DNA of 64,000 bases from the NCBI GenBank assembly GCA_021816935.1, contig JAKAWR010000006.1:86977-150976 (forward strand), read 5' to 3'. A program made the translations under genes and the position numbers. A model generated the notes under the pieces. The model was not told where the DNA came from. It saw only the letters and a program-made list of their open reading frames with translations, and did no database searches. The stretch is from Actinomycetes bacterium. Lineage in GTDB: Bacteria > Actinomycetota > Acidimicrobiia > Acidimicrobiales > JAMCPL01. The first letter of the stretch is position 1. Each line of letters starts with the position of its first letter. Positions 28,724 through 55,731 of this stretch are shown here, one piece after another.

Positions 28724-31206
<2,483 letters not shown>

Positions 31207-31366
31207 GGGCCCGTGTCATAATTAGTGGGATGATATCCGGCGAGTCAGGGGCGTCATCTGGCAAGGACGAGGACGCAGATGTACCAGGGAGTACATCGAG
31301 GACGAGGACACAGCCAGGGGCGTCATCTGGCCGTCGGGATCGCTCAATTAATTATGACACGGGCCC
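31207..31366 (+). mobile_element. MITE-like non-autonomous element, copy A (160 bp, 18-bp perfect terminal inverted repeats)
   Basis: GGGCCCGTGTCATAATTA ... TAATTATGACACGGGCCC, flanked by TAA on both sides. It has no coding capacity. It is 160/160 identical to the reverse complement of 44934-45093 (checked base by base). Confidence 0.85.
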
Positions 31367-31564
31367 TAAGCAGGGCCGGGGCGGAGAGAGGGGGGTCGGA
31401 AGTTCCGCAGGGCCGGGGATGACGATAGCGGAGAGGGCGGCGTGGGTAGCGTATGTGGAAGATGGAATGGGACGTGCAAGTGCAGCGGGAAGCGTAAGCG
31501 GAGCGCCGGAGCGGGAAACGTAAGTGGAGGGGAGAGTGCCTGGAAGAGGAGATAGGAAAATCCA

Positions 31565-33142
31565 ATGGGAGTAGTCCTGGTAGCCGAGAAGATAGCCGAC
31601 AGCGGGTTGGCGTTGCTCCGGGAGGGCGGCCATGAAGTACGTGTCGAGCTGAGCCTGTCGCCCGAGGATCTCCTCTTGGCGCTCCCCGGCGTCAACGCGA
31701 TCATCATACGGTCCGCCACCCAGGTGACGGCCGAGGTGATCGCCGCTGGCTCCGCCTTGCAGGTGGTCGGCCGCGCAGGTATCGGGCTCGACAATGTGGA
31801 CGTGGCCGCTGCGACGAAGAAGGGCGTCATGGTGGTGAATGCTCCGCAGTCGAATATCCTTTCGGCAGCCGAGCATGCTCTCGGCTTACTGATCGCCCAG
31901 GCACGCAACATTCCCCAGGCGCATGCCGCACTGGTTGCCGGCTCATGGGAGCGTTCCAAGTGGGAAGGCGTGGAGCTCTACGGCAAGACCCTGGGAGTAG
32001 TAGGTCTCGGCCACGTTGGTGCTCTTGTGGCTCAGAGGGCTCTTGCATTCGGGATGAAGCTGGTTGCTTACGACCCCTATATAACGGGGGAGCGTGCGAG
32101 GCGGATGGGAGTGGAGCTGCTGGCCTCACTCGAAGACCTTATGGCACGATCGGATTTCGTCACGATACATCTGCCGAAGACGAAGGAGACCATGGGCTTG
32201 ATCGGGCGCGACCTGCTCTTCAAGGCGAAGACGGGCGTGAGGATCGTGAACGCCGCGCGGGGAGGGATCATTGACGAGGAGGCGCTGGCCGAGGCCATCG
32301 AGGCGGGCCATGTCGGAGGCGCTGGCCTGGACGTCTACGCTAGCGAGCCATGTACCGACTCACCCCTGTTCGGCCTTCCGGGTGTCGTGGCGACGCCCCA
32401 CCTCGGGGCATCGACGACCGAGGCCCAGGACAAGGCCGGCATCACCATAGCCGAGCAGGTGAACCTCGCTCTCGCCGGGGAGCTGGTCCCCTTCGCCGTG
32501 AACCTCGCCGCGGGTGAGCTGCCCGAGGCGGCCAAACCCTTCCTGCCCATGGCGGAGACCATGGGCCGCATCATGGCATCGCTGCACGAGGGAGTGCCCG
32601 GGAGTCTCAAGATCGCCTACCAGGGAGCTCTGGCCGGTGAGGGAGGGGGCAGGCCGTCGGTGCTGAAGCTTTCGGCGTTGAAGGGCTTGTTCGCAGCCGG
32701 CACCGAGGAGCCTGTCTCCTACGTCAATGCCCCGAGGCTTGCCGAAGAGAAGGGGCTGGTGATCGAGGAGATCTCCAGCACCTCATCGAAGGACTACGTC
32801 AGCCTTCTCACCCTGAGGTCGCCCGGGCATTCGATTGCCGGAACGCTTGCGGGTGCTCGCTCCGAGCCGAGAATAGTTATGCTCGACGACCACTCCGTCG
32901 AGATCCCTCCGGCGCCGAACATGCTTGTCGTGACCAACGACGACCGTCCGGGCATGATCGGCGTGGTCGGTACGGTGCTCGGGGACGGCGGCATCTCGAT
33001 ATCGTCGATGGCCGTCGGGCCCTCGACAGCGGGCCCGACGGCTCTCATGGTGCTCTCGACCGAAACCCCGGTCGAGAATGCGGTGCTGGCGGCTCTGAGG
33101 GCGTCCGAGGGAATCCTGGAGGTCCACCGCGTCAGCTCCTGA
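31565..33142 (+). CDS. serA: D-3-phosphoglycerate dehydrogenase (long form with a C-terminal ACT domain)
   Basis: GRAGIGLDNVDVAAATKKGVMVVNAPQSN...GKTLGVVGLGHVGALVAQRA...HLPKTKET...TPHLGASTTEAQ, plus a C-terminal ACT-like region. Confidence 0.9.
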   Translation: MGVVLVAEKIADSGLALLREGGHEVRVELSLSPEDLLLALPGVNAIIIRSATQVTAEVIAAGSALQVVGRAGIGLDNVDVAAATKKGVMVVNAPQSNILSAAEHALGLLIAQARNIPQAHAALVAGSWERSKWEGVELYGKTLGVVGLGHVGALVAQRALAFGMKLVAYDPYITGERARRMGVELLASLEDLMARSDFVTIHLPKTKETMGLIGRDLLFKAKTGVRIVNAARGGIIDEEALAEAIEAGHVGGAGLDVYASEPCTDSPLFGLPGVVATPHLGASTTEAQDKAGITIAEQVNLALAGELVPFAVNLAAGELPEAAKPFLPMAETMGRIMASLHEGVPGSLKIAYQGALAGEGGGRPSVLKLSALKGLFAAGTEEPVSYVNAPRLAEEKGLVIEEISSTSSKDYVSLLTLRSPGHSIAGTLAGARSEPRIVMLDDHSVEIPPAPNMLVVTNDDRPGMIGVVGTVLGDGGISISSMAVGPSTAGPTALMVLSTETPVENAVLAALRASEGILEVHRVSS

Positions 33143-36692: not shown

Positions 36693-37008
36693 TGCAGGTC
36701 TCCTTTTACTCGTTGCCCATCCCGTGCTGCCAGGCGTTCGCCAGTGGCACCTACCAGAGAATACACCGCCGCCCGGTCCCACCGTGAGGTTCCTGATGCG
36801 CGTAACCAGTGAGATCTGGGGCTCGGGACGGACCGAAGCGCTCGTCGGCCGACAGGCCGCTCGACACTATGCCGAGGTTGGCGTTGAGGACGCTCGCGTT
36901 CTGTGGGGCGAAAGCCACTTGGATCGTCACGCTCTGGCCGGGGCGACTGTACCGTGGCGGCACAAGACTTAGCAGTCACACCTAGCGCCTCGGCCAATCA
37001 ATGCCTCA

Positions 37009-40000
37009 TCACTGGTACCAGCCAACGATGTCGACTATCACGTCGACCGAACCGGCAAGGTTGTAGATAGAGACCTGGCCCGAGGAGCCGAGTTTCGTTA
37101 TTACGAGGTTCGGAGTCGTCTTGCCAGCGACCCAGTTGAGATCGGAGGCAGTGGGCTGCTTCTGGCCTGCTGGCCAAACCGTGAGGTAAGAGCTTCCCGT
37201 AGTATCCGTAGCCGTGACATTCATAACGGCAGCGGTGGCATTAGCCGGGATCGAATTGATGCCTGCGACCGAGATAGTGAGGGTGGCCTTTGAGCCAAGC
37301 GTCGTGGCAAGGCCGTTTGCAGGCGGGAGGTTTTCTTTGTTGCAGAAGGGAGGTGCGAGCATTCCTGCACCGCAGCGCGTATCGGCGATGCGGGAGGGCG
37401 CAATGGGCGTGTAGCTCGTACCCGTTGACGAGAAATACCCCGACACGTCTACCACGGCGTTCGTAGCTGTGTTGGAGACGAGATCAATGGCTCCCCCCGA
37501 GAGCTCGACGACGACTCGGTTCGGCACCGTCTCGCTCTTCGCAAAGTTGAGGCTCGAGGCGACCGGAGGCGAAGCCCCCGCTGGATAGGCCGTGAGGTAG
37601 CCGGCGGCGGACGGACCAGTAGCGGTCAGGTTCAGGACCACTGCCATGGCTGACGCCGGGATCGAACCCACTCCTGCAACATTCACCTTGAGCGGTAGGC
37701 CCGGATTCAGCGTCTTGCCGCCGCACTGCGCCTGGGCACCCGAGAGGTCGGAGGGATTGTTCGGCCTCGTATCGCAGATTCTTACAGGGCTAAGCGCCTG
37801 GAAGAGGGATCCGCCAGAGGAGCTTACGTAGCCCTCGACGTCAACTACTACGTCGGCCGGAGCCGCCGAGCCGTTGTAGATCGATACCTGCCCGGTTGAG
37901 GGAAGGGCAACCTCGACTAGATTTGCCACCACCTCGCCCTTTGCGAAGTTCAGGCTGGACGTTGCAGGCCGAGTGGTCCCCGCAGGGTAGACGGTGAGAT
38001 ATCCGGAGCCTCGTGGGGACACGACGGTTACGTTGAGCACCGCGGCAGTTGCGCTCAGAGAGACGCCCCCGAGGCCGGTTGCCTGTATGTCGAGCGTGGA
38101 ACACGAGTGAATCGTCTCTCCGTCGTAGAGGCTTCCAGAGCCTGGCCTCGTATCGGCGATGCGGTAGGGTCTAACGGGGCTGTAGCTTCCCGCCGCCGGT
38201 GCCGGTGCAGCTGAGGCTGTGTAGCTGACAGCGCATGGAGACGGGCCCATTCCGACAGGTAGGTCCGAGCCTGTGCCGAAGATCGCACCTGAGATCTGGG
38301 AGATCGACGGCGTGGACGAGGAGGTGGCGGTGAAGTTGAGACAGCCGCTTACCGGATCGAAAACCGCCGGAGGATTAACCGGGATCCAAGCCCCGCCTGC
38401 GAACCCGGCGGCAGTAGCGGTTCCGTCGAACCACTCCATCGTTTGACCGAGCGCCACGCCGCACTGCGTCACGGTTACGTCGTTAAAGGTTGCACCTCCG
38501 GACAGGTTGACATCGAAGTAGCTCCCTCCGGCCTGGAATGGGGAGCCCCCCCCGGGATTTCCCGAATAGCTTGTCACGTAGACGGTGCCGGTACCCCCGG
38601 TTGCGGTGGCGGCCGTGTCGGGTACTGCGGTTCCAGGGCCCCCCGCAGAGGCACTTTCCCGAGAGTTGGCGCTCGTTGCTGAATCGGTTCCGGTAACCTG
38701 AGGTCCGCCGGAGGGCGCCGATGTCGCATCCAGAGTAAGGGTGGCAACCGCCGAGGCACCCGCGCTGTCGGTCGCCTCGACGGCTACGGACGTCGTGCCA
38801 GCAGTCGTGGGTGTGCCCGAAAAAGTTCCCTCGGGAGAGAAGCTCAGCCACGAGGGTAGTGAAGCGCCTGGCTGGACTGACCACCTGTAGGGCGCCGTTC
38901 CGCCTCCAGCGGAAAGCGTGGCGGTGTAGGCCGCCCCGACGGTCGCGCCCGGAAGCGGAGAGGTGGTGGTCACCTGCAGGTTCTGGGGGTAGCCATCCCA
39001 GACGTCGACGTTCTGGATGTACGGTCCGCCCCAGAGCCCGGCTGCAACGGTCGTGCCGCTTTGGCCGGAGCCCCCGTCATTGCCATCTGCCTCGGGTGGG
39101 CCGGGGACGAAAGCAGCGGTATATGTGCCGCCGCCTTGTCCACCTGCACCTCCGGTGCCGCCCGAGCCAGCCTCGAGTGTGGCGCCCGAAAACGTGTTGC
39201 CGCTAAGAATGGCGCTGCCCATCGACGGGGGCAGTCCCCCGGCAAAGATCGACGAGCCGAGTGCATCGCCGCCGGCACCACCGCCCCCTCCGTCGGCCCC
39301 GCTGCCCGCCGTTCCGCACGGCACCAGGTTGGTCGGTGGACCGCACAGGGACATGGAAGCGCCTTGGCCACTACCACTGACGAGATTGTTCGGATCGTCG
39401 CCCGCCCCGCCCTCGCCGCCACCCCCACCGGTTGCCCAATTGTCCTTGAAGGTACTGGAGGACACAACGAGCACCGGCGGGGAGCCGATCCCGAAGTTGG
39501 CGAGGTTGAAAGAGGGCCCGCTGTATATCGCCCCGCCGTAGCCGTAGCTTCCCTTGCCGCCGCTGCCGCCCTTGCCTCCGCTGCCACCGTCACCGGGTAC
39601 GGTCGTATCAGACCCTCCGCCTCCGCCTGCCCCGCCACCACTGCCACCTGCCCAATCGTTCTCGAAGGTCGAACCCGTTACGGTGAGTGTGCCGGTGTTG
39701 TATATGGCACCGCCCTTGCCCGCGCCCCCTGATCCGCCCTTGCCGGCATCGTAGCCGGGCTCGTTGTCGAGGCCGTTGCACGGGCCGTTATACCCGTCAC
39801 CGCCCACGCCCCCGCCGCCCCCGAAAGCCTCGTCAGCGTTGAAGGTGGATCCCGTTACAGTGAGCGCCCCTGCGTTGTAGATAGCGCCGCCCTCGCCGCT
39901 ACCACCGTGGCCTCCCTTTCCCCCCTTGATCATGTCGCTGTCGCTGCAGCCGCCGGTGCCTGCGTTCTCGCCCTGCACCTCCCCAGCGCCCAATCCGGCG

Positions 40001-40725
40001 TTTACGATGGCAACGGTCGAGTGTTGGGCTATGTAGATTATGCCACCCTTGTGGTAGTTGAAGGGCCCCTTGCCGGCGTCAGGGGCGTCGTTGTCGTTGG
40101 GAGCCGCCGGGTCGAACTGCTGGAAGTAGGGGTTCCCCGTGATACGGAGGCCCGGTCCATAAGTCGACGTTCCCCCGTTCAGATCGAGGGTTCCCCCGTT
40201 CACATCGAACGCCTGCCAGTCGTCGCCTATGGGGCAGAGATTGACTGATCCAACGGTCGGGATCGATACCGGTGCTGCCTGGCACGCGGCGGGAGCTGTC
40301 CATTCCGGAGCATGGATTGCGACGTGGTTCCCCATCCCGTAGGTGCCTGTGGGGGAAACGGATACCGTGAGGGCCTGGCCTGCCTCGATGACCACGGTCG
40401 AGGGAAGCCTGAAGCCGCCGGAACACGCCATGACGATCGTCCCACCGAGCGCGCTGTCCGGAGAGGTAGTGACGGTGTTCCACGAAGGGCCGAGCAGTGT
40501 CGTGAGGGCCTGGTCGAAGCCCGAGTTGTCCGAGCAATCCGTCACCGTTACGGTCGGGCTGGCAGGACTGCCGGATCGAGGACTGAACGTGGCGCTCTCG
40601 GGAGCGGATCCGGTCGGCGAAAGGGACCACGCCGGTCCACTGGTGGTGGTGAGAAGGACGATTCCGAGCACGGAAAGGCTTGCCGACGCGAGGCCGCTCC
40701 TCAGCTGCCACCTCACTGGTACCAT
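37009..40725 (-). CDS. Giant secreted protein A: Gly-rich Pmp-like (GGAI/FxxN) beta-helix region, Ig-like domain, an unassigned domain, and three C-terminal DTR...GWY repeats
   Basis: Signal-peptide-like start MVPVRWQLRSGLASASLSVLGIVLLTTTSGPAWS. Pmp-type repeats GGAIYNAGALTVTGSTFNADEA and GGAIYNTGTLTVTGSTFENDWA. Ig-like PLPGATVGAAYTATLSAGGGTAPYRWSV. Three ~125-aa C-terminal repeats; the protein ends in VGWYQ. The longest ORF extends to 40806 and overlaps gene B. Confidence 0.8.
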   Translation of the reverse strand: MVPVRWQLRSGLASASLSVLGIVLLTTTSGPAWSLSPTGSAPESATFSPRSGSPASPTVTVTDCSDNSGFDQALTTLLGPSWNTVTTSPDSALGGTIVMACSGGFRLPSTVVIEAGQALTVSVSPTGTYGMGNHVAIHAPEWTAPAACQAAPVSIPTVGSVNLCPIGDDWQAFDVNGGTLDLNGGTSTYGPGLRITGNPYFQQFDPAAPNDNDAPDAGKGPFNYHKGGIIYIAQHSTVAIVNAGLGAGEVQGENAGTGGCSDSDMIKGGKGGHGGSGEGGAIYNAGALTVTGSTFNADEAFGGGGGVGGDGYNGPCNGLDNEPGYDAGKGGSGGAGKGGAIYNTGTLTVTGSTFENDWAGGSGGGAGGGGGSDTTVPGDGGSGGKGGSGGKGSYGYGGAIYSGPSFNLANFGIGSPPVLVVSSSTFKDNWATGGGGGEGGAGDDPNNLVSGSGQGASMSLCGPPTNLVPCGTAGSGADGGGGGAGGDALGSSIFAGGLPPSMGSAILSGNTFSGATLEAGSGGTGGAGGQGGGTYTAAFVPGPPEADGNDGGSGQSGTTVAAGLWGGPYIQNVDVWDGYPQNLQVTTTSPLPGATVGAAYTATLSAGGGTAPYRWSVQPGASLPSWLSFSPEGTFSGTPTTAGTTSVAVEATDSAGASAVATLTLDATSAPSGGPQVTGTDSATSANSRESASAGGPGTAVPDTAATATGGTGTVYVTSYSGNPGGGSPFQAGGSYFDVNLSGGATFNDVTVTQCGVALGQTMEWFDGTATAAGFAGGAWIPVNPPAVFDPVSGCLNFTATSSSTPSISQISGAIFGTGSDLPVGMGPSPCAVSYTASAAPAPAAGSYSPVRPYRIADTRPGSGSLYDGETIHSCSTLDIQATGLGGVSLSATAAVLNVTVVSPRGSGYLTVYPAGTTRPATSSLNFAKGEVVANLVEVALPSTGQVSIYNGSAAPADVVVDVEGYVSSSGGSLFQALSPVRICDTRPNNPSDLSGAQAQCGGKTLNPGLPLKVNVAGVGSIPASAMAVVLNLTATGPSAAGYLTAYPAGASPPVASSLNFAKSETVPNRVVVELSGGAIDLVSNTATNAVVDVSGYFSSTGTSYTPIAPSRIADTRCGAGMLAPPFCNKENLPPANGLATTLGSKATLTISVAGINSIPANATAAVMNVTATDTTGSSYLTVWPAGQKQPTASDLNWVAGKTTPNLVITKLGSSGQVSIYNLAGSVDVIVDIVGWYQ

Positions 40726-40783
40726 CCCGCGACGCCCGCTATCACCCTGCGCCTGGCCATGCTCTGCGGCCACTGGCGCCACC

Positions 40784-43462
40784 TCACTGGTACCAGCCCA
40801 CGACATCGGCTATTACGTCTGTCGATCCTGCGTTGTTGAAGATGGATACATCGCCTCCGGCCCCGAGCATTACGATCACGAGGTTCGGAACCGTCTCGCC
40901 AGGTGACCAGTTGAGATCGGAAGCCGTAGGGCGTTTCTGGCCTGCAGGCCACATGGTGAGGTAACTTGCCGCTACCGTGTGGGTGACCGTCACGTTCAGA
41001 ACGACGGCGGTAGCCCCTGCCGGTACCCCGCCGACCCCTTGCACCTGGACGGTGAGAGAACCCCCTGGAGGGATCGTCTGGCCCTCGTAGGGCTCTCCGG
41101 ACCCCTGGCGGGTATCCAGGATTCTGGCAGGAGTGATCCCGGAGAACTGGGTAAGCGCGCTCCCCGTGCCACCTGGAAGGGTGTACCACCCCCCCACATC
41201 CACTATCACGTTCGCCTGTCCTGAATTGTTGTAGATGGACACCTCGCCTGTGGGTCCGACCGGTACGGATACCCTGTTCGGTGCCGTCACGCCTTTCGTC
41301 CAGTTCAAGTTGGAGGCGGTAGGCCTGTTTGCACCCTGGGGCCACACCGTCAGGTAGCTCGATGCAGTGGTTCCGCTCACCGTCACGTTCAGAACGACCC
41401 CCTCCGCCTTGCCCGCCGGCACTCCGCCCGCTCCTGCCACCTGTATGGTCATGGTTCCCCCTGGCCCCAGCGGGCCGTCGGCGTTGCACTGGGCTTCGGT
41501 GCCGGAGAGCTGGGAGGGGTTTCCCGCCCTCGTGTCGCAGATACGGGCAGGTGCAAGCGGGTTGTACAGACCGGCTCCGGAAGCGGCCGGTCCCACGTAG
41601 CCTTCTACGTCCACGATCACATTTGCAGATGTGACGCTCGTATAGATCGAAACCTGTCCGGATTGGCCGAGCGCGACCTCTACGAGGTTCGGGACCACCT
41701 CTCCCGCTTGGAAGTTCAGATTCGACGACAAAGGCTCCTGGGTCCCGCTCGGGTATATCGTGAAGAAACCGGTAGTGGATGCGCCGGCCGCCGTCACGTT
41801 CAAGACGACGGCCGTGGCACCTGTGGAGGGGACGCCTCCTGAGGTCGCACCGTCAGGGTTCGTTCCCGCCACCTGGATCGTAAGTGGATTGCCTGTACTC
41901 AGGGTTACGCCCGCGCACTGGGCATCGGTGCCGGAGAGGTTGGAGGGGTTTCCCGCCCTCGTGTCGCATATCCGGTACGGGGTGAGCGGGTTGTATGGCG
42001 CAGGCACTGTCGGCTGGGAGGGGATGACGGGTTGCGAGGCAAGAGAGGCGGTGCCGTTTCCGTCGCAGTTGGTGGCCGCTACCGTGAAGGTGTACTTCGT
42101 GCCGTTCGCAAGCCCGCTGACCGTATAGGTGGTGGAAGTGGAGCCGGTCTGCTCCGAGTTCACGAGGGTGGTTCCCGAGTAGATGTCCACCTCGTAGCTC
42201 GTGATCGGGCACTCGCCGGCAAACGATGGAGCGGTCCAGGTGAGGTTGGCCGTTGCGTTGGCCGGGGTGGCTATCACGTTGGTTGGAGCGCCGGGCACGG
42301 TGTTCGTGTTGGCGTAGAGGAAAATGTTGCCCCCGGTGTAGGTGTCTCCTGCGGCGCAGAAGGAGATCGAAGGGCACGAGATCGCTGACAGGTTCCCCTG
42401 GGAGTCGACGGCGACGGCGCTGGACCACGACGTGCCGTCGAAGTACGAGACGTGGCCGCTGTAGGTTCCCCCCGTGCCCGCGATCCCGGCCACGCAGAAC
42501 TTCGCGCTGGCGCACGACACGGCCTCCACCGGCGAGTTGTCCGGAGCGACCAGGACAGGAGCCGCCCACGACGTGCCGTCAAAGGTGACTGCGTACCCGA
42601 GATTGTCGACGGCGGCGCAGAACGACGGCGTCGGGCACGACACGGAATAGAGCATTTCCGCGTTTCCCTGGTAGGAGTCGATCACCTGTGGCGCGCTCCA
42701 GGTCGAACCGTCCCAGCTGAGAGCGTTGCCGAATGAGTCGACGGCGATGCACATGGTCGCGCCCGCGCACGACACGGACTCGAGAGTATGGCCGCTGTTC
42801 GGCGTGCTGTCTACGAACGCCGGTGCCGTCCATGCGGTCCCGTTGAACATCATCGCGTCCCCGTTCTGGTCGACGGCAGCGCAGAACGTCGCGCTCGTGC
42901 ACGATACCGAGTCGATCGCGACGGCGTTCTGGAACTGGTTGGCACTCCCCTGACCGTCGATCAGAGAGGGCGTGCCCCACGTGCCGCTCGAGTACTCGGT
43001 CGCGTAGCCCACGCTGTCGACGACCATGCAGAATGCCGTCGTGGGGCAGGAGATTGTGGCCGTTGTGCCGTTGCCGTTGATCTCGGGGTCGACGGACTTC
43101 GGAGTGCTCCACGACGATCCGTCGTAGTACGTGGCATAGGCGGACTCGTCGAGCCCCACGCAGAACGTCGTGGTTGGGCACGACATTCCCTGGAACGCCG
43201 GAGCCTCCGGGTAGGTCGTCCCGTACACGTTGATCGGGCCGCTCCAGGTTCCGGTCGAAGCAGCCGCCTGCCCGCCTCCGATCAACGCCAGTGTGCCGCC
43301 GACGGTGGCCGGCACCATTGCGGCCAGTGCCAGGGCAAGGCGGACTGCCCAGGCGACGCCCGTCTCGCCGGGATACTGCCACATGCTTCCGTGGGCCTCC
43401 TGAGAACTCTCGTTAACTGAGCTTGCTGGGCCTTGGTGTCGACGCACCTTGCCGGCTTTCAT
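40784..43462 (-). CDS. Giant secreted protein B: 7-blade Cys-pair beta-propeller-like region, FN3, and three C-terminal DTR...GWY repeats
   Basis: Hydrophobic signal-like segment WAVRLALALAAMVPATVGGTLALIGG. Seven ~45-aa units (SCPTTTFCVGLD...YYDGSSWSTP and similar). FN3: PGAPTNVIATPANATANLTWTAP...YEVDIYSG...GTKYTFTVAATN. Three C-terminal repeats ending in VGWYQ. The ATG at 43462 lies 1 nt after the upstream stop; the Met at 43384 is an alternative start. Confidence 0.8.
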   Translation of the reverse strand: MKAGKVRRHQGPASSVNESSQEAHGSMWQYPGETGVAWAVRLALALAAMVPATVGGTLALIGGGQAAASTGTWSGPINVYGTTYPEAPAFQGMSCPTTTFCVGLDESAYATYYDGSSWSTPKSVDPEINGNGTTATISCPTTAFCMVVDSVGYATEYSSGTWGTPSLIDGQGSANQFQNAVAIDSVSCTSATFCAAVDQNGDAMMFNGTAWTAPAFVDSTPNSGHTLESVSCAGATMCIAVDSFGNALSWDGSTWSAPQVIDSYQGNAEMLYSVSCPTPSFCAAVDNLGYAVTFDGTSWAAPVLVAPDNSPVEAVSCASAKFCVAGIAGTGGTYSGHVSYFDGTSWSSAVAVDSQGNLSAISCPSISFCAAGDTYTGGNIFLYANTNTVPGAPTNVIATPANATANLTWTAPSFAGECPITSYEVDIYSGTTLVNSEQTGSTSTTYTVSGLANGTKYTFTVAATNCDGNGTASLASQPVIPSQPTVPAPYNPLTPYRICDTRAGNPSNLSGTDAQCAGVTLSTGNPLTIQVAGTNPDGATSGGVPSTGATAVVLNVTAAGASTTGFFTIYPSGTQEPLSSNLNFQAGEVVPNLVEVALGQSGQVSIYTSVTSANVIVDVEGYVGPAASGAGLYNPLAPARICDTRAGNPSQLSGTEAQCNADGPLGPGGTMTIQVAGAGGVPAGKAEGVVLNVTVSGTTASSYLTVWPQGANRPTASNLNWTKGVTAPNRVSVPVGPTGEVSIYNNSGQANVIVDVGGWYTLPGGTGSALTQFSGITPARILDTRQGSGEPYEGQTIPPGGSLTVQVQGVGGVPAGATAVVLNVTVTHTVAASYLTMWPAGQKRPTASDLNWSPGETVPNLVIVMLGAGGDVSIFNNAGSTDVIADVVGWYQ

Positions 43463-44407: not shown

Positions 44408-44902
44408 GTGAGCACCTCCAAGCCGTGGCTCAGCGGTAGCATTGCCGGCGTGAGAGAGGATTGCGAGCATTTCCAGAGCAGGACCTATCCGGACGGCGAG
44501 GCGGCCCGGTTCTGCGAGCTGAACCTGGCTCCTGAGGCTCCCTGGAGGTGCCCCAAGGACTGCAAGGCATACGAGAGGCGCCTTGTCGACCTGAGTTTCG
44601 ACAGGGGAAGCCTTGCTTACCGGCAGGTGGAGGAGGATCCGGTGGCGAACGAGGATGAGCTGGCGGTGTTGGCCCAGGCAGAAGAGCTGGTCGAAGAGGC
44701 GATTCCCGAGATGTTGCATGAGCTTGGCCGGGACGGCGAGGGAGGCTCGGACGGGTCGTTCAAGCCAGATTCGCTTTCGGACGACCCGTTACGACCCACG
44801 GGGCCAGGAGGGCAACTCAGGAGGGATCGCTCCGGGGCCGCCAGCCGCGGCTCGGGTGCGTTATCCCGTCTTTTCGGTCGCAGAAAGCGATACAACTCCT
44901 GA
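44408..44902 (+). CDS. Hypothetical protein with a 4-Cys N-terminal motif and an acidic/disordered C-terminus
   Basis: The 164-aa ORF has four Cys: DCEHF...FCELN...WRCPKDC. No family recognised. Confidence 0.45.
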   Translation: MSTSKPWLSGSIAGVREDCEHFQSRTYPDGEAARFCELNLAPEAPWRCPKDCKAYERRLVDLSFDRGSLAYRQVEEDPVANEDELAVLAQAEELVEEAIPEMLHELGRDGEGGSDGSFKPDSLSDDPLRPTGPGGQLRRDRSGAASRGSGALSRLFGRRKRYNS

Positions 44903-44933
44903 TCACGGGATAGCCTGGCCTCGGGAGGCGTTA

Positions 44934-45093
44934 GGGCCCGTGTCATAATTAATTGAGCGATCCCGACGGCCAGATGACGCCCCTGGCTGTGTCCTCGTCC
45001 TCGATGTACTCCCTGGTACATCTGCGTCCTCGTCCTTGCCAGATGACGCCCCTGACTCGCCGGATATCATCCCACTAATTATGACACGGGCCC
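44934..45093 (-). mobile_element. MITE-like element, copy B (inverted relative to copy A)
   Basis: It is the exact reverse complement of 31207-31366. It is flanked by TTA on both sides, which is TAA in the element's own orientation. Confidence 0.85.
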
Positions 45094-45243
45094 TTACCGT
45101 TCAGTCGATCGCGAGAATGCGGTAGCTGCGGTCGCCCATGGCACCGAAGGAATGCGCAAGGCACGTCGGCCAGCGGGCCGTTGCTGGCTGATACCGCGGG
45201 CAGCGCTCTGGCCCGGCGGGGACGGTGCCGGGCCGGGCAGGGT

Positions 45244-47736
45244 TCAGCCTGCGGGGAGGTTGGTCGACTGGGCGAGGGTGAAGCTGTCCTGAAGCGGCAG
45301 GTTCACCAGGGCTGAAGAGTCACCGACGTAGACACGGTAGGTACCCGGTGCGTCGGTCCAGGTGCCGGCTGTAGAGTTATTGGCAGCTCCCGAGCTGTCG
45401 CCGGCTGAGGTTTGGAAGTAAGCGAGGCTCCTTGCGTCGAGGTGGAAAGTGACAGCCTCCGACTGTCCGCGTGCCAGGGTTACCCGCTGGAAGCCCTTCA
45501 ATTGCAGCGGGGGTTCACCGGTCGAGGCCGGATCACCCACGTACAGCTGTACCACGTCGGATCCCGCCGTACGGCCGGTGTTCGTCACCTGGGCGCTGAC
45601 GGTAGCGACGGTCGGGGATCCGGTTGATTGTACCCCCGCCCTCCCACTTCCCGCCCTCGCACTCTCGCTACTACCACCCGTCCCACTCGTGTCACCCCCC
45701 CCGTTGCCCCCGCCCCGGCTGACCAAGAGGTGCGAAAAAGAGAACGTGGTATAGGAGAGACCGAAACCGAAGGGGAAAAGCGGGACGAGATCGTGTTCGT
45801 CGTAGTATCGGTACCCGACGAAGATCCCCTCCGAGTAATCGACGTTGCCGCCCACGCCGGGGAATTGGGCAGGCGAGCTGACAGGGCTCTCGGAGTAGCT
45901 GGTGGGAAAGGTGATGGTGAGGTGCCCGGAGGGGTTGGTTTGCCCGAAGATCACCGAGGCAATGGCGGTGCCGTCCTCCTCTCCAGGGTATCCCGCATAG
46001 ATCACGCCTGCGACGCTTCCCAGCCAGGGCATTGTTACGGGGGTGCCGCTGTTGAGGACCACGATCGTGCGCGGATTCGCTGTCGCGACGGCCTCGACCA
46101 GGGCCGTATCGGTAGCGGAGAGCGCCATGGACGTCGCGTCGTCCATGCCCTCGAAGTCGAGGTTGGACACGAATACGATCGCGAAGCGAGAAGCTCTGGC
46201 AACCCGCGAGGCTGCCGTTGGGTCGTCGGAGGTGTCGCAGGTCACCGCTACCCCGTGGGGAGCTACCGCCTTGATGCCGTCGCAGGGAGTCACGATGAAC
46301 GGAGCGTTCACATGGGCACTGCTGATCGCGGGCGTAGCTGTAACAGCGCTTTCGCCGGCGTCGGAGCCGATCACTGCAACAGACCCGGCGGAGCTGCCGA
46401 GAGGGAGGAGCCCCCCCTCGTTCCGGAGCAGAACGGTGCCCTCCTCCGCCACCTTCCTGGCGAAGGCGGCATGGGAAGGCGTGTCAACGCTGCTCGAGGA
46501 GCTTCCGGTCGGCCGCCGGTCGAAAAGCCCAAAGCGGAACATCTGCGAAAGTATCTCGCCAACCAAAGTGTCGATGGTCGATACGGACACCCGGTGATGC
46601 TTCACTGCGTCGTAGAGCTGGCCCAGGTCGTAGTAGCTGGAACTCTGTGTAAGTCCGAGCTGAGAGAAGTTGAGCCCGGCATTGGCCGAGGCGGCCGTCG
46701 CGTGAGTCGCGCCGTAATCCGAACCGACGAACCCGCTGAAGTGGTACGTGTCCCTGAGCACGTTGGTAAGCAGGTAGTGGTCGTTGCAGGCAAACTGGCC
46801 GTTCGGGTGGCTGTAGGAACACATGATCGATGCCGGCGACGCCTGCTCGACCACCGCCCGCCAGGCGGGTAGGTAGATCTCCTGGAGCGCCCGCTCGCTC
46901 ACGATTACGTTGTCGCTCGCTGTGTTGCGGTGCGTTTCCTGGTTGTAGAGAGCAAAGTGCTTGACCTGAGCCATCATGCCCTCCGATTGGATGCCCTCGA
47001 CGTTGGCGACCCCGAGCTGCGCTGTGAGATATGGGTCCTCGCTGTAAGTCTCGAACGAGCGTCCCCAAACCGGAACCCGGTCAATGTTGATGGTCGGTCC
47101 GAAGATCATGCCGACGCCTTGCCCCCAGTGCTCCTTAGCATTCAGCTGCCCGTACTCGTACGAAAGTTGCGGGTCCCAGGTCTGGGCGAGCACCTGCGGG
47201 TCGGGGAGCTGGGTTACGTTGACGGCGCCGCCGCCCACTCCTGCGGAATCGTCCTCCGAGGTGAGCGACGGAATGCACAGGCTCGGCATTCCCAGGAGGT
47301 ATCCTTCCTGGCCGTTTCTCGTCGTGGTCGGGTGCATTATCGCGATCTTCTGCTTCAACGTCATTCTCGCAAGGAGCATGCCGACCCGCTTGCCGACGGG
47401 GAGCCGCGGGTCGAGCCACGGGCACTTGCCGAGCTCGGCGGGCGTGGGCAGCATTACCCTTGTCCCGGGTATCCGGCCGAAGGGCACGTCCGACGCAGAC
47501 AGCCCACTTACCCCGTTGCCGGTTCCCGAGGAGCACGAGGCGAGTCCGGCGGCAAGTACCAGGGCGGCACTGGTCGTAGCGGCAGTGAGCAGCACGGAGC
47601 GCCGGATCAGCCGGGCGCATCGGGTGGACGGGCGAGAGCCGGGCGGATCCGCCTCGCCGGATCTTGCTACGTATGCTGCGAGCATCGTGTCGGCCTCATG
47701 GCTTCTCATACTGTCATACCGGCGTGCTGGTGCCAA
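45244..47736 (-). CDS. Glycoside hydrolase family 3 (beta-glucosidase-like), probably a lipoprotein
   Basis: GPTINIDRVPVWGRSFETYSEDPYL...KHFALYNQE...IMCSYS...GFVGSDYGA (nucleophile Asp region), a C-terminal FnIII-like domain, and the N-terminal lipobox LAAGLASC. The start is uncertain. Confidence 0.9.
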   Translation of the reverse strand: MAPARRYDSMRSHEADTMLAAYVARSGEADPPGSRPSTRCARLIRRSVLLTAATTSAALVLAAGLASCSSGTGNGVSGLSASDVPFGRIPGTRVMLPTPAELGKCPWLDPRLPVGKRVGMLLARMTLKQKIAIMHPTTTRNGQEGYLLGMPSLCIPSLTSEDDSAGVGGGAVNVTQLPDPQVLAQTWDPQLSYEYGQLNAKEHWGQGVGMIFGPTINIDRVPVWGRSFETYSEDPYLTAQLGVANVEGIQSEGMMAQVKHFALYNQETHRNTASDNVIVSERALQEIYLPAWRAVVEQASPASIMCSYSHPNGQFACNDHYLLTNVLRDTYHFSGFVGSDYGATHATAASANAGLNFSQLGLTQSSSYYDLGQLYDAVKHHRVSVSTIDTLVGEILSQMFRFGLFDRRPTGSSSSSVDTPSHAAFARKVAEEGTVLLRNEGGLLPLGSSAGSVAVIGSDAGESAVTATPAISSAHVNAPFIVTPCDGIKAVAPHGVAVTCDTSDDPTAASRVARASRFAIVFVSNLDFEGMDDATSMALSATDTALVEAVATANPRTIVVLNSGTPVTMPWLGSVAGVIYAGYPGEEDGTAIASVIFGQTNPSGHLTITFPTSYSESPVSSPAQFPGVGGNVDYSEGIFVGYRYYDEHDLVPLFPFGFGLSYTTFSFSHLLVSRGGGNGGGDTSGTGGSSESARAGSGRAGVQSTGSPTVATVSAQVTNTGRTAGSDVVQLYVGDPASTGEPPLQLKGFQRVTLARGQSEAVTFHLDARSLAYFQTSAGDSSGAANNSTAGTWTDAPGTYRVYVGDSSALVNLPLQDSFTLAQSTNLPAG

Positions 47737-51634: not shown

Positions 51635-54600
51635 CTACTTGGCGGGGAGGGCTGTGTACCAGCCGGTCACGTCGATGGCGAGAGCGGTGGTACCGCTCAG
51701 GTTGAAAACTTCGACGGCGCCCCCCTGGCCCCCCTGGCCGCTCCCCGCGGCGACAGGCAGCAGGACCATATTGGCTTTGATCGTCCCCGGGCTCCAGTTG
51801 AGGTTCGATGTGTCCGGCTTGGTTGTACCCAACTGGTAGATCGTAAGGTAGCTGTTCGTCGTCGTCAGGGTCACGGTCACGTTGGCGGTCACCGAGACCG
51901 CATCGGCCGGCAGGGAGCCTGCTCCGATTACCTGTGCTGCCAGTTCACCCGCCGTACCGGCACCTACAGGGGTCCCGGAATTGGCGCATTGACGCGAGGC
52001 GCCGCTTGCCGCGTCCGGTGCTCCGCCGATTTGAGCGGCGGAGCGCGTGTCGCATATCCGGAACGGCGAGCTGGGTGTGAACGCGTAGCCACTTGGCGAG
52101 AACCATGCGCTCACGTCGACGATGACCTGGGACGTGCCCGATGAGTTGTAGATTTCTATCTTGCCGAGGCCGGTGCCCTGGCCCAGGGCGACCATGACGC
52201 TGTCCGACGCGGTGCGATGCACGAAGTTGACGCTGGACGTCGTGGTCCGGGTCGTTCCCGCGGGCCACACCGTGAGATAGCCGTTGGCAGTCGGCGGCCC
52301 GGCTGCTGTGACGTTGAGCATCACGGCGCTCACGCCCGAGGAGGGGATTCCATTTACCCCCGCCACCTGGATCGTGATGGTCCCACCGGGTCCGGGAGCC
52401 GTTATAGCGGAGTTGGGCGCGGGTATGGCCTCGCCGGTGCAGTACGCGGGCAGGCTACGCGGCGGGTTCGTCGTCGTGCAACGGGTGTCGAGGATCCTGA
52501 CGGGAGACGTTAGTGGATCAAGATAGGTTCCACCGGGAGCCGCAGGCGCGTAGTAACCTTCAACGTCCACGATGACGTTGACTCCGGCGCTGGACGAGAG
52601 AACGGAGATCTTACCGAGCGACCCGACTGCGACAGTGACGAGGTTCGGGACCGGCTCCGCCGGAGTGTAGTTGAGGCTCGACGTCGTCGGAGGAGCAGTG
52701 CCTGCCGGGTACGCCGACAGGAAGCCGTTATGCGCCTGCGCCGGCGCGACGGCGGTCAGCGTGATGACGACCGCCTCAGCGTTGTTCGGGACGGCACCGG
52801 CCCCGGGCCCGGTGCCGGTGGTACTCGTGATCTGTATCTCTATGGATCCGCCGGCTGCAGGCGGGTTGAGAGCGGCGTTGGCCGTCGGGAGGCGCTCGCT
52901 CTGGCATTCGGAAGCGGGCAGAACTGGCGGGCTGGAGCTGCAGCGGGTGTCGGCCTCGCGGAAGGGGTTTACGGGCACGTAGGGGAGTGACGGTGTTACG
53001 TAGACGAAACCCACTGCAGCGCTCGTGCCCGATGGCGTCGTTACCGTGACCCCCACGACGCCGGGCGACGCATAGGAGGGCACGGTAACAGTTACCTCGC
53101 TTGCCGATACGACGGTAAGAGACGGTGCTGTTCCGGCGGGGCCGAACGTTGCTGCCGTAGCGGAGAGGAGGTACGTGCCCATGATGGTCGCGCTGGCTCC
53201 GCCGGTCAGCGGGGACGAATCCGGCGTGATGAAGGTGATCGACGGAGGCGGTGCCTGTTTCTCCAGGATCACCTGGTCGTTCGTGGTTGCACCGGTGGCG
53301 AAGCATACCTCCGTGCCCGGCGGGCACTCTATAGAGTAGATCGTGACCACGCCGGTGGGGAGCGGTTCGCCTGCCCACGTCCGGCCCCCGTCGGTCGTGC
53401 CCATGGCCACGGGGACCGATCCTGGGGACCCGGCCATGCCCACCATGCTGCAGTACTCGCCAGCGGAGCAGGAGACCCCAAGGACGGCGCTTGTGCCCGG
53501 CGGCGACTTGACGGCGGTCCACGTGGCTCCGCCGTCCGACGTGGTGACGATCTCGGCGGCGGACGTACTTCCCACTGCAATGCAATCGGTCGCGGTCGGG
53601 CACGAGACGCTGAAGAGCGGCGGCATGCCCTGCGGAGTCGAACCGAGCTTCCAGGTCGCTCCGCCGTCCGACGTGTACACCGCGTACCCCACGCTATGGC
53701 CAGAATCGAACCCCACCGCTGCGCAGTGAGTCGTGTCGGCGCACGACACGGCTATAAGTATGCCGATCGGTGCCTGCGTGCCGCCTCGAGCGACCACGTC
53801 CGGCGGTGTCGACGTCGACCAGGTGGCACCGGCGTCGGTCGACTTGTAGATGTAGGCCTGGTTCTCCCCCGAGGCGGAACCGACGGCGAAGCATTCCGAA
53901 GTTGAGGGACACGACACCCATTCCATCGACTGCTTGCCCGTGGGAACAGTGCCGGCGGTCCAGGTGAGGCCTGCGTTCACCGTCGTGGCCGCGTGCGAGG
54001 TGGAGTCGGTATTGTCGTCCCCTACGGCAGTGCACTGCGAAGGGGCGGGGCAGGAAACGCTCTCCAAGCTCATTGGAGAAGGTGGCGGGGTCTGCGAAGA
54101 CCACGTGGCACCACCGTCGCCTGTCGCCTCTATGAATGCGGTCGTTCTTGCGGCATCGTATCCGACAGCGGTGCAGCGGAACGTTCCGTAACAGCCTATG
54201 GCGGGAAGCTGTGCCATCCCTTCGGGTGCCGCCTTGGTCGACCAGGTCTTGCCGCCGTCGGTGGTCTGGAGGATGGTGGCCACCTGCCCCAGCCGCGCGG
54301 CCCCTACAGCAGTGCACCCTGTGGCGGTGGGGCAGGAGATGCCGTCGAGTGCGCCTGCACCAGAAGGGAAACCGGTAAGCGACGTCCAGGACGATCCTCC
54401 GTCGGTAGTCTCGATCGCGATTGGAGTGGTGGTGTCGTAATTGCCCGGGCTCACGGCAAGGCACGTCGTAGAGGAGGTGCAGCTCACCGATGTGAGTGCA
54501 TCGAGCCCCGGAGGCGTCGAGGGAGGCGTCGAGGTGGTCCACGACGTGCCGCCATTCGCTGTGTCGACGATCCATGGAGTGGCGGTCCCTCCTCCGGCCG

Positions 54601-55642: not shown

Positions 55643-55663
55643 CGCCCGCAGGCCGTGGCGGCA

Positions 55664-55731
55664 ACCTCGGAGAGTTCGTCGTCCAGCCTGCTCGCCGACC
55701 TCGGAGAGCTCGTCGTCCAGCCTGCCCGCCG
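55664..55731. repeat. 34-bp tandem duplication x2 (2 mismatches) upstream of the probable start of protein C
   Basis: acctcggagagttcgtcgtccagcctgctcgccg / acctcggagagctcgtcgtccagcctgcccgccg, followed by a partial acct. The unit length is not a multiple of 3. Confidence 0.9.

What the first reader, a model, noticed from the sequence alone, without database searches (positions are those of the whole stretch)
31204..31369. Apparently novel 160-bp MITE with 18-bp perfect TIRs, TAA flanks and an unusual internal direct-repeat/hairpin layout
**Structure.** The element is GGGCCCGTGTCATAATTA ... TAATTATGACACGGGCCC. Its AT-rich termini stand out in a GC-rich genome.

Internally it is not a simple palindrome. 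Two copies of caggggcgtcatctgg flank two copies of aggacgaggac, and these in turn flank a short hairpin (gatgtac-caggga-gtacatc).

**Flanks.** Both copies are flanked by TAA in the element's own orientation: TAA/TAA at copy A and TTA/TTA on the plus strand at copy B. This fits a 3-bp target-site duplication with TAA (TWA) preference. From memory, that is the pattern of some IS5-family and PIF/Harbinger-type transposases. With only two copies, the alternative of an imperfect extended TIR cannot be excluded.

**Insertion site.** At copy A the left TAA is the stop codon of the aminotransferase gene. The element therefore appears to have inserted exactly at, and regenerated, a stop codon.

**Autonomy.** There is no transposase in the window.
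Basis: partly seen in the sequence, partly recalled or inferred. Interest (0 to 1): 0.6.

Follow-up and report, generated by a model that had tools for sequence, protein, structure and literature searches.

The report
Small hairpin-forming mobile repeat (MITE)
The 160-bp sequence is real and is best read as a short, transposase-less mobile DNA repeat (a MITE) from a small new family in an uncultured Acidimicrobiia bacterium. One strand can fold into a long RNA hairpin, which is a useful detail, but this is an ordinary kind of element.

Summary
**Observation.** It is confirmed in every detail. There are two 100% identical 160-bp copies in opposite orientation. Each has perfect 18-bp terminal inverted repeats (TIRs) and TAA on both sides. 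At copy A the left TAA is the intact stop codon of an aspartate-aminotransferase gene.

**New findings.**
- The element belongs to a small family with at least 5 loci in this species.
- A third locus carries a longer form with the same ends (known only from a spurious ORF translation).
- Two further loci carry a second subfamily of 205-206 bp (213-214 with flanks), 80-85% identical. It has its own TIR (TGTACCGTCTCAYAAATA) and its own flanks (CTAG/CTAG).
- The window copies are internally deleted derivatives.
- The "odd internal direct repeats" are the two arms of a ~56-bp stem rich in G·U pairs. The stem forms on one strand only (-93.6 versus -68.6 kcal/mol). It is conserved between subfamilies, with compensatory changes and invariant G·U pairs.

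**What was not found.** There is no Rfam match, no relative in plasmids, phages or viral contigs, and no transposase in the window. No empty site and no cognate insertion sequence (IS) could be reached, so mobility and target-site duplication (TSD) length remain inferred.

**Verdict.** This is a new member of a known kind: a low-copy MITE, probably of IS5/PIF-Harbinger type, less likely IS630 type. Long RNA stem-loops are a classic MITE trait. Interest is modest.

The parts
31204..31206 (+). Left flank TAA of copy A. It is the stop codon of the aspartate-aminotransferase gene and the putative left copy of the target-site duplication.
   Evidence: The C-terminus is intact compared with a homologue.
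31207..31366 (+). Copy A of the 160-bp element (subfamily 1, short form). The strongly folding strand is the + strand.
31207..31224 (+). Left terminal inverted repeat of copy A, GGGCCCGTGTCATAATTA.
31225..31262 (+). 5' arm of the interior stem. It contains the first CAGGGGCGTCATCTGG and pairs with 31313-31348 through 10 G·U pairs.
31278..31297 (+). Apical hairpin GATGTAC-CAGGGA-GTACATC. It is conserved in subfamily 2 with one compensatory pair.
   Evidence: helix 4.
31313..31348 (+). 3' arm of the interior stem. It contains the second CAGGGGCGTCATCTGG.
31349..31366 (+). Right terminal inverted repeat of copy A.
31367..31369 (+). Right flank TAA of copy A (putative right copy of the duplication).
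44931..44933 (-). Flank of copy B. It reads TTA on the + strand, which is TAA in the element's orientation (right flank of the element).
44934..45093 (-). Copy B of the 160-bp element, identical to copy A. It lies between two convergent genes: ORF 44408-44902 (+) and the GH3 glycosidase 45244-47736 (-).
45094..45096 (-). Flank of copy B. It reads TTA on the + strand, which is TAA in the element's orientation (left flank of the element).

Best explanation
[quoted passage not shown] It is a non-coding, internally deleted derivative of a TIR transposon and is moved in trans by a transposase encoded elsewhere in the genome.

**Inferred mechanism.** The transposase binds the 18-bp terminal inverted repeats and makes a staggered cut at a TAA target. 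Gap repair then leaves TAA on both sides. TAA is rare in this 65% GC genome, so insertions land in AT-richer intergenic spots. One of these was a TAA stop codon, which the duplication regenerates, leaving the gene intact.

**Shown here.**
- The element belongs to a small family in this Acidimicrobiia species, with two subfamilies that have co-varying TIR tips and flanking repeats (GGGCCC.../TAA and TGTACC.../CTAG).
- The 160-bp form lacks a ~45-nt central segment present in the longer forms. It still exists as two identical copies, so the termini suffice for copying.

**Secondary property (structure shown, function inferred).** When transcribed in one orientation, the whole element folds into a ~56-bp hairpin rich in G·U pairs. 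This fold is conserved between subfamilies. It would act on the host mRNA as a 3'-end or 5'-UTR stem, for example as a terminator, a stabiliser or an RNase III substrate.
For: **Repeat and termini.**
- Two identical copies lie at unrelated loci in opposite orientation, with perfect 18-bp TIRs and TAA/TAA flanks.
- Chance is excluded: no shuffle gave a match, and TAA occupies only 0.23% of positions.
- Short-read contigs of five independent assemblies break inside the element, as expected for a repeat.

**Third locus.** P0121 is a spurious 234-aa ORF that translates the element.
- Its arms are identical to the window element (20/20 and 29/29 aa).
- Its centre is 45 nt longer.
- Its flanks are compatible with T-N-A on the left and N-A-A on the right.

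**Second subfamily.** It occurs at two further loci, L021 660-872 and L022 9998-10211.
- It is 80-85% identical to subfamily 1 over the whole length.
- Its TIR is TGTACCGTCTCAYAAATA.
- Both loci are flanked by CTAG/CTAG. CTAG occurs only 22 times in the 64-kb window.

**Not protein-coding.** A 1-nt indel between the two subfamily-2 copies shifts the only long frame.

**Gene integrity.** The host gene's C-terminus is intact at the stop-codon insertion.

**Hairpin.**
- Minimum free energy (MFE) of the two strands is -93.6 / -68.6 kcal/mol for subfamily 1, and -103.5 / -75.2 and -96.8 / -81.6 for the two subfamily-2 copies.
- In interior shuffles that keep the TIRs, the plus strand has z = -4.5 (0 of 1000 shuffles reach it) and the minus strand z = +0.2.
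- In the consensus structure 96.6% of cells are paired. Twelve pairs show compensatory changes, against 0-1 in the slid controls.
- Invariant G·U pairs sit at alignment columns 19/188, 25/182, 39/170, 43/166 and 45/163.

**Literature.**
- Long, very stable RNA stem-loops are described as a classic MITE feature (PMC3184786).
- CTAG and YTAR targets are those of IS5 (4-bp TSD, PMC5493358) and IS630 (TA within CTAG, PMC2577343).
- PIF/Harbinger makes 3-bp TSDs (PMC2213677).
Against: **No empty site was seen.**
- Every assembly of the species carries the element at loci A, B and D.
- The nearest other genomes are only about 67-70% identical in flanking proteins, and synteny is broken.

**No cognate IS or transposase with matching TIRs was found.** Genome-wide and metagenome-wide scans could be run only once each.

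**Copy number is low.** Five loci are known. There is none in the 116 kb to the left of copy A, and none in the 37 kb to the right of copy B.

**TAA may not be a duplication.** TAA has the same orientation relative to the element in all 3 subfamily-1 loci. It could therefore be part of the element rather than a duplication.

**Flank lengths differ.** The two subfamilies imply different duplication lengths: 3 bp versus 4 or 2 bp.

**The interior is constrained.** Covariation in the interior and conserved G·U pairs go beyond what transposase binding requires. Some structural selection therefore acts in addition to mobility.
Confidence: 0.7

Rival explanations
1. The element is a family of structured non-coding RNA genes or cis-regulatory RNA hairpins, not a transposon. 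On this view the long stem and the conserved central domain are the function. The copies arose by ordinary duplication or recombination, and the TAA/CTAG bases belong to the element.
For: - The fold is strand-specific and depends on G·U pairs.
- Twelve compensatory pairs and five invariant G·U pairs are seen between the subfamilies.
- The central 57 nt is nearly invariant (18/19 codons) between the long form of subfamily 1 and subfamily 2, while the arms are only 80-85% identical.
- Both subfamily-2 copies end 9-20 nt upstream of a start codon, in the sense orientation.
Against: - No Rfam family matches, even at E <= 10.
- The two identical window copies lack the conserved centre altogether yet were copied.
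- The copies lie in unrelated contexts: a 3' end, a convergent gap, and divergent promoter regions.
- TAA...TAA is a direct repeat, not an inverted one, so it does not extend the stem.
- The terminal 6 nt and the flanking repeat change together between subfamilies. This is what a change of transposase or target predicts.
- Orientation relative to neighbouring genes is informative at only one locus.
Confidence: 0.17
2. The element is mobile but moves as single-stranded DNA. A strand-specific hairpin would be recognised by an HUH/Y1-type or similar enzyme, as in IS200/IS605-derived PATEs, REP/RAYT systems or attC-like substrates, rather than by a DDE transposase.
For: One strand folds far better than the other, and the asymmetry is conserved.
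Against: - With DNA energy parameters the two strands are nearly equal: -38.2 / -35.8, -48.9 / -41.2 and -51.5 / -45.9 kcal/mol.
- IS200/IS605 derivatives and REPs lack long perfect TIRs and flanking direct repeats.
- REPs are 20-40 bp and carry GTAG or CGTC tags (PMC3733652).
- There is no GTTRRRY/RYYYAAC core and no integrase context as for attC sites (gene tables).
- No Y1 or RAYT gene is present in the window.
Confidence: 0.08
3. The feature is a chance palindrome or an assembly artefact.
For: One contig tip (the end of L008, GGGCCCTTA) is an assembler artefact of the palindromic TIR.
Against: Identical junctions are found in five independent assemblies. No shuffle reproduced the 18-mer. 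Fold z-scores are -11 and -9.
Confidence: 0.01

Closest known systems
Bacterial MITEs that fold into long RNA hairpins, e.g. Chunjie of Geobacter, Correia/NEMIS of Neisseria, and ERIC/YPAL of enterobacteria (review PMC3184786)
   Same: - Size is 100-250 bp, with no transposase.
- They have TIRs and short flanking direct repeats that contain TA.
- They are intergenic.
- The whole element folds into a very stable stem-loop at RNA level. Chunjie is quoted at about -98 to -130 kcal/mol; this element gives -94 to -112.
- Internal indel variants occur.
   Different: - There is no sequence similarity to anything searched.
- Copy number is very low (at least 5 loci, against tens to hundreds).
- The host is an uncultured Acidimicrobiia lineage.
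- The flanks are TAA or CTAG rather than plain TA.
- The strand asymmetry and conserved G·U pairs are documented here, but I did not verify them for those families.
Tourist/mPing-type MITEs of the PIF/Harbinger superfamily and their prokaryotic relatives in the IS5 family (IS5, IS427, IS1031, ISL2 groups)
   Same: - The target contains TA.
- PIF/Harbinger makes a 3-bp duplication (PMC2213677). IS5 makes a 4-bp Py-T-A-Pu duplication that is most often CTAG (PMC5493358). The superfamily is reported to make TSDs of 0, 2 or 3 bp (PMC12730594).
- From memory only: the TIR tip GGGCCCGTGTCATAAT resembles mPing/PIF tips of the GGCCAGTCACAAT type.
   Different: No transposase was identified, so membership is untested. 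The TIR resemblance is a recollection, not a test. TAA keeps the same orientation relative to the element in all three subfamily-1 loci.
IS630/Tc1-mariner-derived MITEs
   Same: IS630 inserts at TA within CTAG and duplicates TA (PMC2577343, Table 1). The subfamily-2 flanks (C-TA-G on both sides) fit this exactly if the element is read one base longer at each end.
   Different: Subfamily 1 fits a TA duplication only if its two ends differ by one nucleotide and the target is still TAA. A 3-bp TAA duplication is the simpler reading.

Membership tests
MITE (non-autonomous TIR transposon) | Small size (tens to a few hundred bp) with no transposase or coding capacity. | tested here: met
   The elements are 160-206 bp. 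The only long open frame is broken by a 1-nt indel between the two subfamily-2 copies. Pfam finds nothing on neighbouring small ORFs.
MITE (non-autonomous TIR transposon) | Terminal inverted repeats. | tested here: met
   Subfamily 1 has perfect 18-bp TIRs. Subfamily 2 has TIRs matching at 16-17 of 18 positions.
MITE (non-autonomous TIR transposon) | Several dispersed copies at unrelated loci. | tested here: met
   At least five loci are known: A and B (window), the P0121 locus, L021 and L022. Copy number is low.
MITE (non-autonomous TIR transposon) | Target-site duplication, shown by comparison with an empty site. | tested here: inconclusive
   Direct repeats flank all copies: TAA/TAA twice and CTAG/CTAG twice. 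No empty site was found in any assembly or relative.
MITE (non-autonomous TIR transposon) | A cognate autonomous IS with the same TIRs. | not testable with these tools
   None is present in the window.
IS5 / PIF-Harbinger-derived element | A 3-bp TWA (or 4-bp YTAR) duplication made by a DDE transposase of that superfamily. | tested here: inconclusive
   The flanks have the right form: TAA, and CTAG which matches YTAR (PMC5493358, PMC2213677). The transposase is not identified.
IS630/Tc1-mariner-derived element | A TA duplication with symmetric ends. | tested here: inconclusive
   Subfamily 2 fits (C-TA-G). Subfamily 1 fits only with a 1-nt asymmetry between its ends.
Described RNA family (Rfam 15) | A match to a covariance model. 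| tested here: not met
   There is no hit at gathering score in the whole window. There is none at E <= 10 on either subfamily.
REP/BIME (RAYT-mobilised) | A 20-40 bp G+C-rich palindrome with a GTAG or CGTC tag, in high copy, with a RAYT gene. | tested here: not met
   The size is 160-206 bp, with AT-rich inner TIRs, no tag, low copy number and no Y1 gene in the window (PMC3733652).
Integron attC site | RYYYAAC / GTTRRRY core sites, an array downstream of cassettes, and an IntI nearby. | tested here: not met
   The cores are absent at copy A. The copies are 13.6 kb apart, inverted, and lie among housekeeping genes. No integron integrase is in the window.

The most novel reading that the evidence does not exclude
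The family may be more than selfish DNA. It could be a mobile, strand-specific RNA module: a ~56-bp stem rich in G·U pairs capped by a strongly conserved ~57-nt core. Selection would maintain it at the RNA level, and it would install a ready-made regulatory hairpin or small-RNA precursor wherever it lands. The 160-bp window copies would then be core-less derivatives. The conserved G·U pairs, the compensatory changes in the interior, and a centre that evolves more slowly than the arms do not exclude this reading.
Probability: 0.15. Interest if true: 0.55.

Novelty: new member of a known kind. Interest (0 to 1): 0.3.

Why it matters
- **New family.** It adds a previously undescribed MITE family, with two subfamilies and deletion derivatives, to a poorly studied and uncultured Acidimicrobiia lineage.
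- **Assembly breaks.** It explains why short-read assemblies of this organism break at these points.
- **Harmless insertion.** It gives a clear example of an element targeting rare TAA or CTAG sites in a GC-rich genome. One insertion sits exactly at a stop codon without harming the gene.
- **Testable RNA case.** The conserved one-strand-only G·U hairpin makes this a compact case for asking whether MITE bodies are shaped by RNA-level selection.

None of this changes how MITEs are understood.

Tried and rejected
1. **Exact TIR 18-mer scans.** Scans of species-representative genomes (2 hits), JGI metagenomes (5 hits) and viral contigs (0 hits) gave only isolated 18-24-mers, which are chance matches.
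2. **Conserved-core scans.** Conserved-core patterns against viral contigs gave nothing.
3. **blastn searches.** Both subfamilies were searched against plasmids and subfamily 1 also against phages. Only short chance matches inside coding regions appeared.
4. **Rfam.** Searches at gathering score and at E <= 10 gave nothing.
5. **Empty-site search via orthologues.** The closest aminotransferase homologue (67%) has different downstream genes. The response regulator next to the L022 copy has no relative above 70% identity. All assemblies of the species carry the element at loci A, B and D.
6. **P0121 DNA.** The DNA of the P0121 locus could not be fetched. In some searches one contig was read but never shown, so the window's own assembly appears to be withheld. 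This is an inference.
7. **Small ORFs.** Small ORFs inside the element are not in the protein collection.
8. **L008 tip.** The 'TTA' tip at the end of contig L008 looked like a third junction. It is the reverse complement of the left junction, a palindrome artefact.
9. **Promoter in the TIR.** An inward extended -10-like motif (TGTCATAAT) occurs in the subfamily-1 TIR. It is not conserved in subfamily 2 (CTCATAAAT), so I did not adopt it as a function.
10. **Protein-coding reading.** This is rejected because of the frameshift between the two subfamily-2 copies.
11. **nhmmer profile.** A profile of the family found no further copies in any held locus.

Full report
**1.

The sequence at 31204-31369 reads TAA-GGGCCCGTGTCATAATTA...TAATTATGACACGGGCCC-TAA. 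A second copy lies at 44931-45096 on the opposite strand. The two are identical over all 166 nt and diverge immediately outside the TAA triplets.

- The 18-mer terminal repeat occurs exactly four times in the window. None was found in any of 100 shuffles.
- The internal 16-mer CAGGGGCGTCATCTGG occurs twice per copy.
- AGGACGAGGAC also occurs twice per copy, around a GATGTAC/GTACATC hairpin.
- TAA occupies only 0.23% of window positions. It is the stop codon of only 2 of 32 genes.

The left TAA of copy A is the stop codon of an Aminotran_1_2 protein. Its 400-aa product aligns end to end, without gaps, with a 67%-identical homologue of the same length. The gene is therefore neither truncated nor extended.

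Copy A sits between this gene and serA (31565-33142). Copy B sits between two convergent genes: a called 164-aa ORF (44408-44902, +) and a GH3 glycosidase (45244-47736, -).

No transposase is present in the window. It is a housekeeping chromosomal region holding gatCAB, sucCD, ppk, ftsW, mfd, serA and similar genes (gene tables).

**2. It is a real repeat of a real genome.**

The aminotransferase has an identical copy in public assemblies (P0001). Its best other hits are only 66-67% identical and are labelled Acidimicrobiales or Actinobacteria. The host is therefore an isolated, uncultured Acidimicrobiia lineage.

The window is 100% identical to contigs of ENA assembly ERZ27237336, and 99.8-100% identical to contigs of NCBI MAG GCA_027414435.1 and of the Logan assemblies of SRR13205815 and SRR13205817. 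In every one of these short-read assemblies the contigs stop inside the element:

- One 116-kb contig ends in copy A.
- A 13,841-bp contig runs exactly from copy A to copy B.
- A 37-kb contig starts in copy B.

This is the signature of a repeat longer than the assembler's k. It also shows that no further copy lies within 116 kb to the left of A or 37 kb to the right of B.

One contig tip (GGGCCCTTA) that looked like a third junction is the reverse complement of the left junction. It is an artefact of the palindromic ends.

**3. Finding relatives.**

Direct DNA searches failed.

- The exact TIR gave only chance 18-24-mers in species-representative genomes, JGI metagenomes and viral contigs.
- blastn against plasmids and phages gave nothing.
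- Rfam has no match.

I then joined the six-frame translation of the element into one pseudo-protein and searched the protein collection for spurious ORFs that read through copies. This found P0121.

P0121 is a 234-aa ORF on a 255.7-kb NCBI contig. Its middle translates the element. The two arms are identical to the window copy (20/20 and 29/29 residues). The four central residues EDAD are replaced by 19 residues, an increase of 45 nt. Its flanking codons allow T-N-A on the left and N-A-A on the right, which is compatible with TAA/TAA. Its flanks match none of the other loci, so this is a third locus. Its DNA could not be fetched.

An exhaustive phmmer search with P0121 then found two more spurious ORFs, P0122 and P0123. 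Their DNA could be fetched.

**4. A second subfamily.**

L021 660-872 comes from GCA_027414435.1, the same MAG that carries the window's loci A and B. The same locus is present in ERZ27233557. L022 9998-10211 comes from GCA_027321985.1, and the same locus is present in two ENA assemblies and in the same Logan runs. Both hold a 205-206-bp element that aligns with the window element over its whole length:

| Region compared | Identity |
|---|---|
| Left arm | 80.7% |
| Right arm | 85.4% |

- The ends are TGTACCGTCTCAYAAATA / TATTTGTGAGACGGTRCA. They are homologous to the window's TIRs but differ in the outer six bases.
- Both loci are flanked by CTAG on each side. CTAG occurs only 22 times in the 64-kb window.
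- The two subfamily-2 copies are 95.8% identical and lie in unrelated contexts. One is next to a tRNA-Val, 9 nt upstream of a 277-aa ORF. The other lies between a xerC-like gene and a response regulator, 20 nt upstream of its start codon.
- A 1-nt indel between them shifts the only long reading frame, so the element is not protein-coding.

The central segment missing from the window copies is present in subfamily 2. At the protein-translation level it matches P0121 at 18 of 19 codons. It includes the perfect hairpin GCGCAACAGTCC-GGT-GGACTGTTGCG.

The window's 160-bp form is therefore an internally deleted derivative of a ~205-bp element. The extra AGGACGAGGAC repeat lies at the site of that replacement.

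**5. The 'odd' interior is a one-strand stem.**

| Element | MFE, + strand (kcal/mol) | MFE, - strand (kcal/mol) |
|---|---|---|
| Subfamily 1, copy A | -93.6 | -68.6 |
| Subfamily 2, L021 | -103.5 | -75.2 |
| Subfamily 2, L022 | -96.8 | -81.6 |

- The plus-strand fold is a nearly continuous stem of 56 pairs with 10 G·U pairs. The two CAGGGGCGTCATCTGG 'direct repeats' pair with each other.
- I kept the TIRs and the apical hairpin fixed and shuffled only the interior. The plus strand then lies 4.5 SD below expectation (0 of 1000 shuffles reach it). The minus strand is at expectation (z = +0.2).
- The interior is therefore not a DNA palindrome. Its complementarity exists only through G·U pairs on one strand.
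- The same asymmetry holds in both subfamily-2 copies. It almost vanishes with DNA energy parameters, so it is RNA-type.

Across the three distinct sequences:

- The consensus structure keeps 96.6% of cells paired.
- Twelve pairs changed on both sides, against 0-1 when partners are slid by 1-3 columns.
- Four of the compensatory pairs lie inside the stem beyond the TIRs (columns 20/187, 22/184, 31/177, 36/172).
- Five G·U pairs are invariant.
- The minus-strand consensus fold does not form the interior stem (-57 versus -83 kcal/mol).

Only three sequences were compared, two of them close to each other. This is suggestive, not conclusive.

**6. Interpretation.**

The following together are the anatomy of a MITE family:

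- Perfect TIRs.
- Identical copies at unrelated loci in both orientations.
- Direct repeats at both ends that are very rare in this genome.
- Terminal bases and flanking repeats that change together between subfamilies.
- An internally deleted form that was nevertheless copied.

The long RNA hairpin does not argue against this. Reviews list long, very stable RNA stem-loops as a classic feature of bacterial MITEs (PMC3184786).

Mobility itself remains unproven. I found no empty site. All assemblies of the species carry the element at loci A, B and D. The nearest other genomes are about 67-70% identical in flanking proteins, with broken synteny. No IS with the same ends was found.

The duplication length is also open.

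- TAA/TAA is most simply a 3-bp duplication. This fits PIF/Harbinger-type elements (PMC2213677) and, from my memory of ISfinder, the 3-bp groups of the IS5 family.
- CTAG/CTAG is either a 4-bp IS5-type duplication (Py-T-A-Pu, mostly CTAG; PMC5493358) or a TA duplication within CTAG as for IS630 (PMC2577343).
- A TA reading fits subfamily 1 only with a one-base asymmetry between its ends.
- The IS5/Harbinger superfamily is reported to make duplications of 0, 2 or 3 bp (PMC12730594). Two lengths within one lineage is therefore not absurd.

I favour an IS5/PIF-Harbinger-type parent (roughly 0.45) over an IS630-type parent (0.2). The rest is unknown.

**7. Function.**

This part is inferred, not shown. 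At A and B the element lies in 3' regions. At the two subfamily-2 loci it lies just upstream of ribosome-binding sites. If transcribed in the folding orientation it would place a ~56-bp stem in the mRNA. That stem is a plausible terminator, 3'-end stabiliser or RNase III substrate.

Orientation relative to neighbouring genes is informative at only one locus (A), so no bias can be claimed. An extended -10-like motif in the subfamily-1 TIR is not conserved in subfamily 2, and I dropped it.

**8. Rivals.**

- **A non-mobile structured-RNA family (0.17).** The covariation and the slowly evolving centre favour it. The core-less yet duplicated window copies, the direct (not inverted) TAA repeats, and the co-change of termini and flanks argue against it.
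- **A single-stranded-DNA mobile element (0.08).** The near-symmetric DNA-parameter folds and the TIR-plus-direct-repeat anatomy argue against it.
- **Artefact or chance.** This is excluded.

**9. Verdict.**

The feature is real, correctly described, and correctly suspected to be a MITE. It belongs to a new family: no sequence relative was found in anything searched, and there is no Rfam family. It is still of a well-known kind, at low copy number, in an obscure genome. The one feature of more than routine interest is the conserved hairpin that depends on G·U pairs and forms on one strand only, together with its conserved core. This leaves a minority possibility (about 0.15) of a mobile RNA module under RNA-level selection.

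Noticed in passing
window 31370-31564: The 195-nt stretch between copy A and the serA start codon is strikingly purine-rich (G/A). It has a duplicated GCAGGGCCGGGG motif (31370-31381 and 31407-31418) and several GCGGAGAG-like repeats. It may be a structured or regulatory serA leader. Rfam finds nothing there.
   Followed up: partly
window 3665-3804: A perfect 15-bp tandem repeat (CCGCCCGTGACGGCT, about 8 units) lies inside the N-terminal region of the FtsW/RodA-family ORF (2275-4047, -). It would encode a repeated pentapeptide and is a likely length-variable tract.
   Followed up: no
window 37000-43460 and 51800-55700: There are very large ORFs (1265, 866/892 and about 1298 aa) with fn3, BNR or TIG hits or no Pfam hit. 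They share diverged internal repeats of about 400 bp period (repeat families D2-D9). They look like a family of repetitive surface proteins.
   Followed up: no
L021 471-545 (and L020 790-864): A tRNA-Val(CAC) gene lies 115 nt upstream of the subfamily-2 copy. The element's CTAG target is in the tRNA-proximal intergenic region.
   Followed up: partly
L022 8945-9853 and 10232-10909: The other subfamily-2 copy sits in a divergent promoter region, between a xerC-like tyrosine recombinase gene and an OmpR-family response regulator. It ends 20 nt before the regulator's start codon, so it must lie in or replace that gene's promoter or 5'-UTR.
   Followed up: partly
L018 1-1471: In the closest relative carrying the aminotransferase (67% identity, GCA_054636795.1), a TnpB-like gene (Cas12f1-like_TNB) lies about 2.5 kb upstream. 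It is unrelated to the element studied here.
   Followed up: no
In each contig look-up, one contig was read but never shown, always a long one (e.g. 169,398 bp). P0121's only contig (255,701 bp) was 'not on record'. The window's own source assembly seems to be withheld, which is why the third subfamily-1 locus could be seen only as protein.
   Followed up: partly
L010 end, L012/L014 starts (Logan, k=31): Logan contigs at copy A stop with 28 and 27 shared bases rather than the 30 expected for a two-copy repeat. At the subfamily-2 locus the break is at exactly 30 shared bases (L027). This could hint at further copies with similar flanks, or it could be contig trimming.
   Followed up: no
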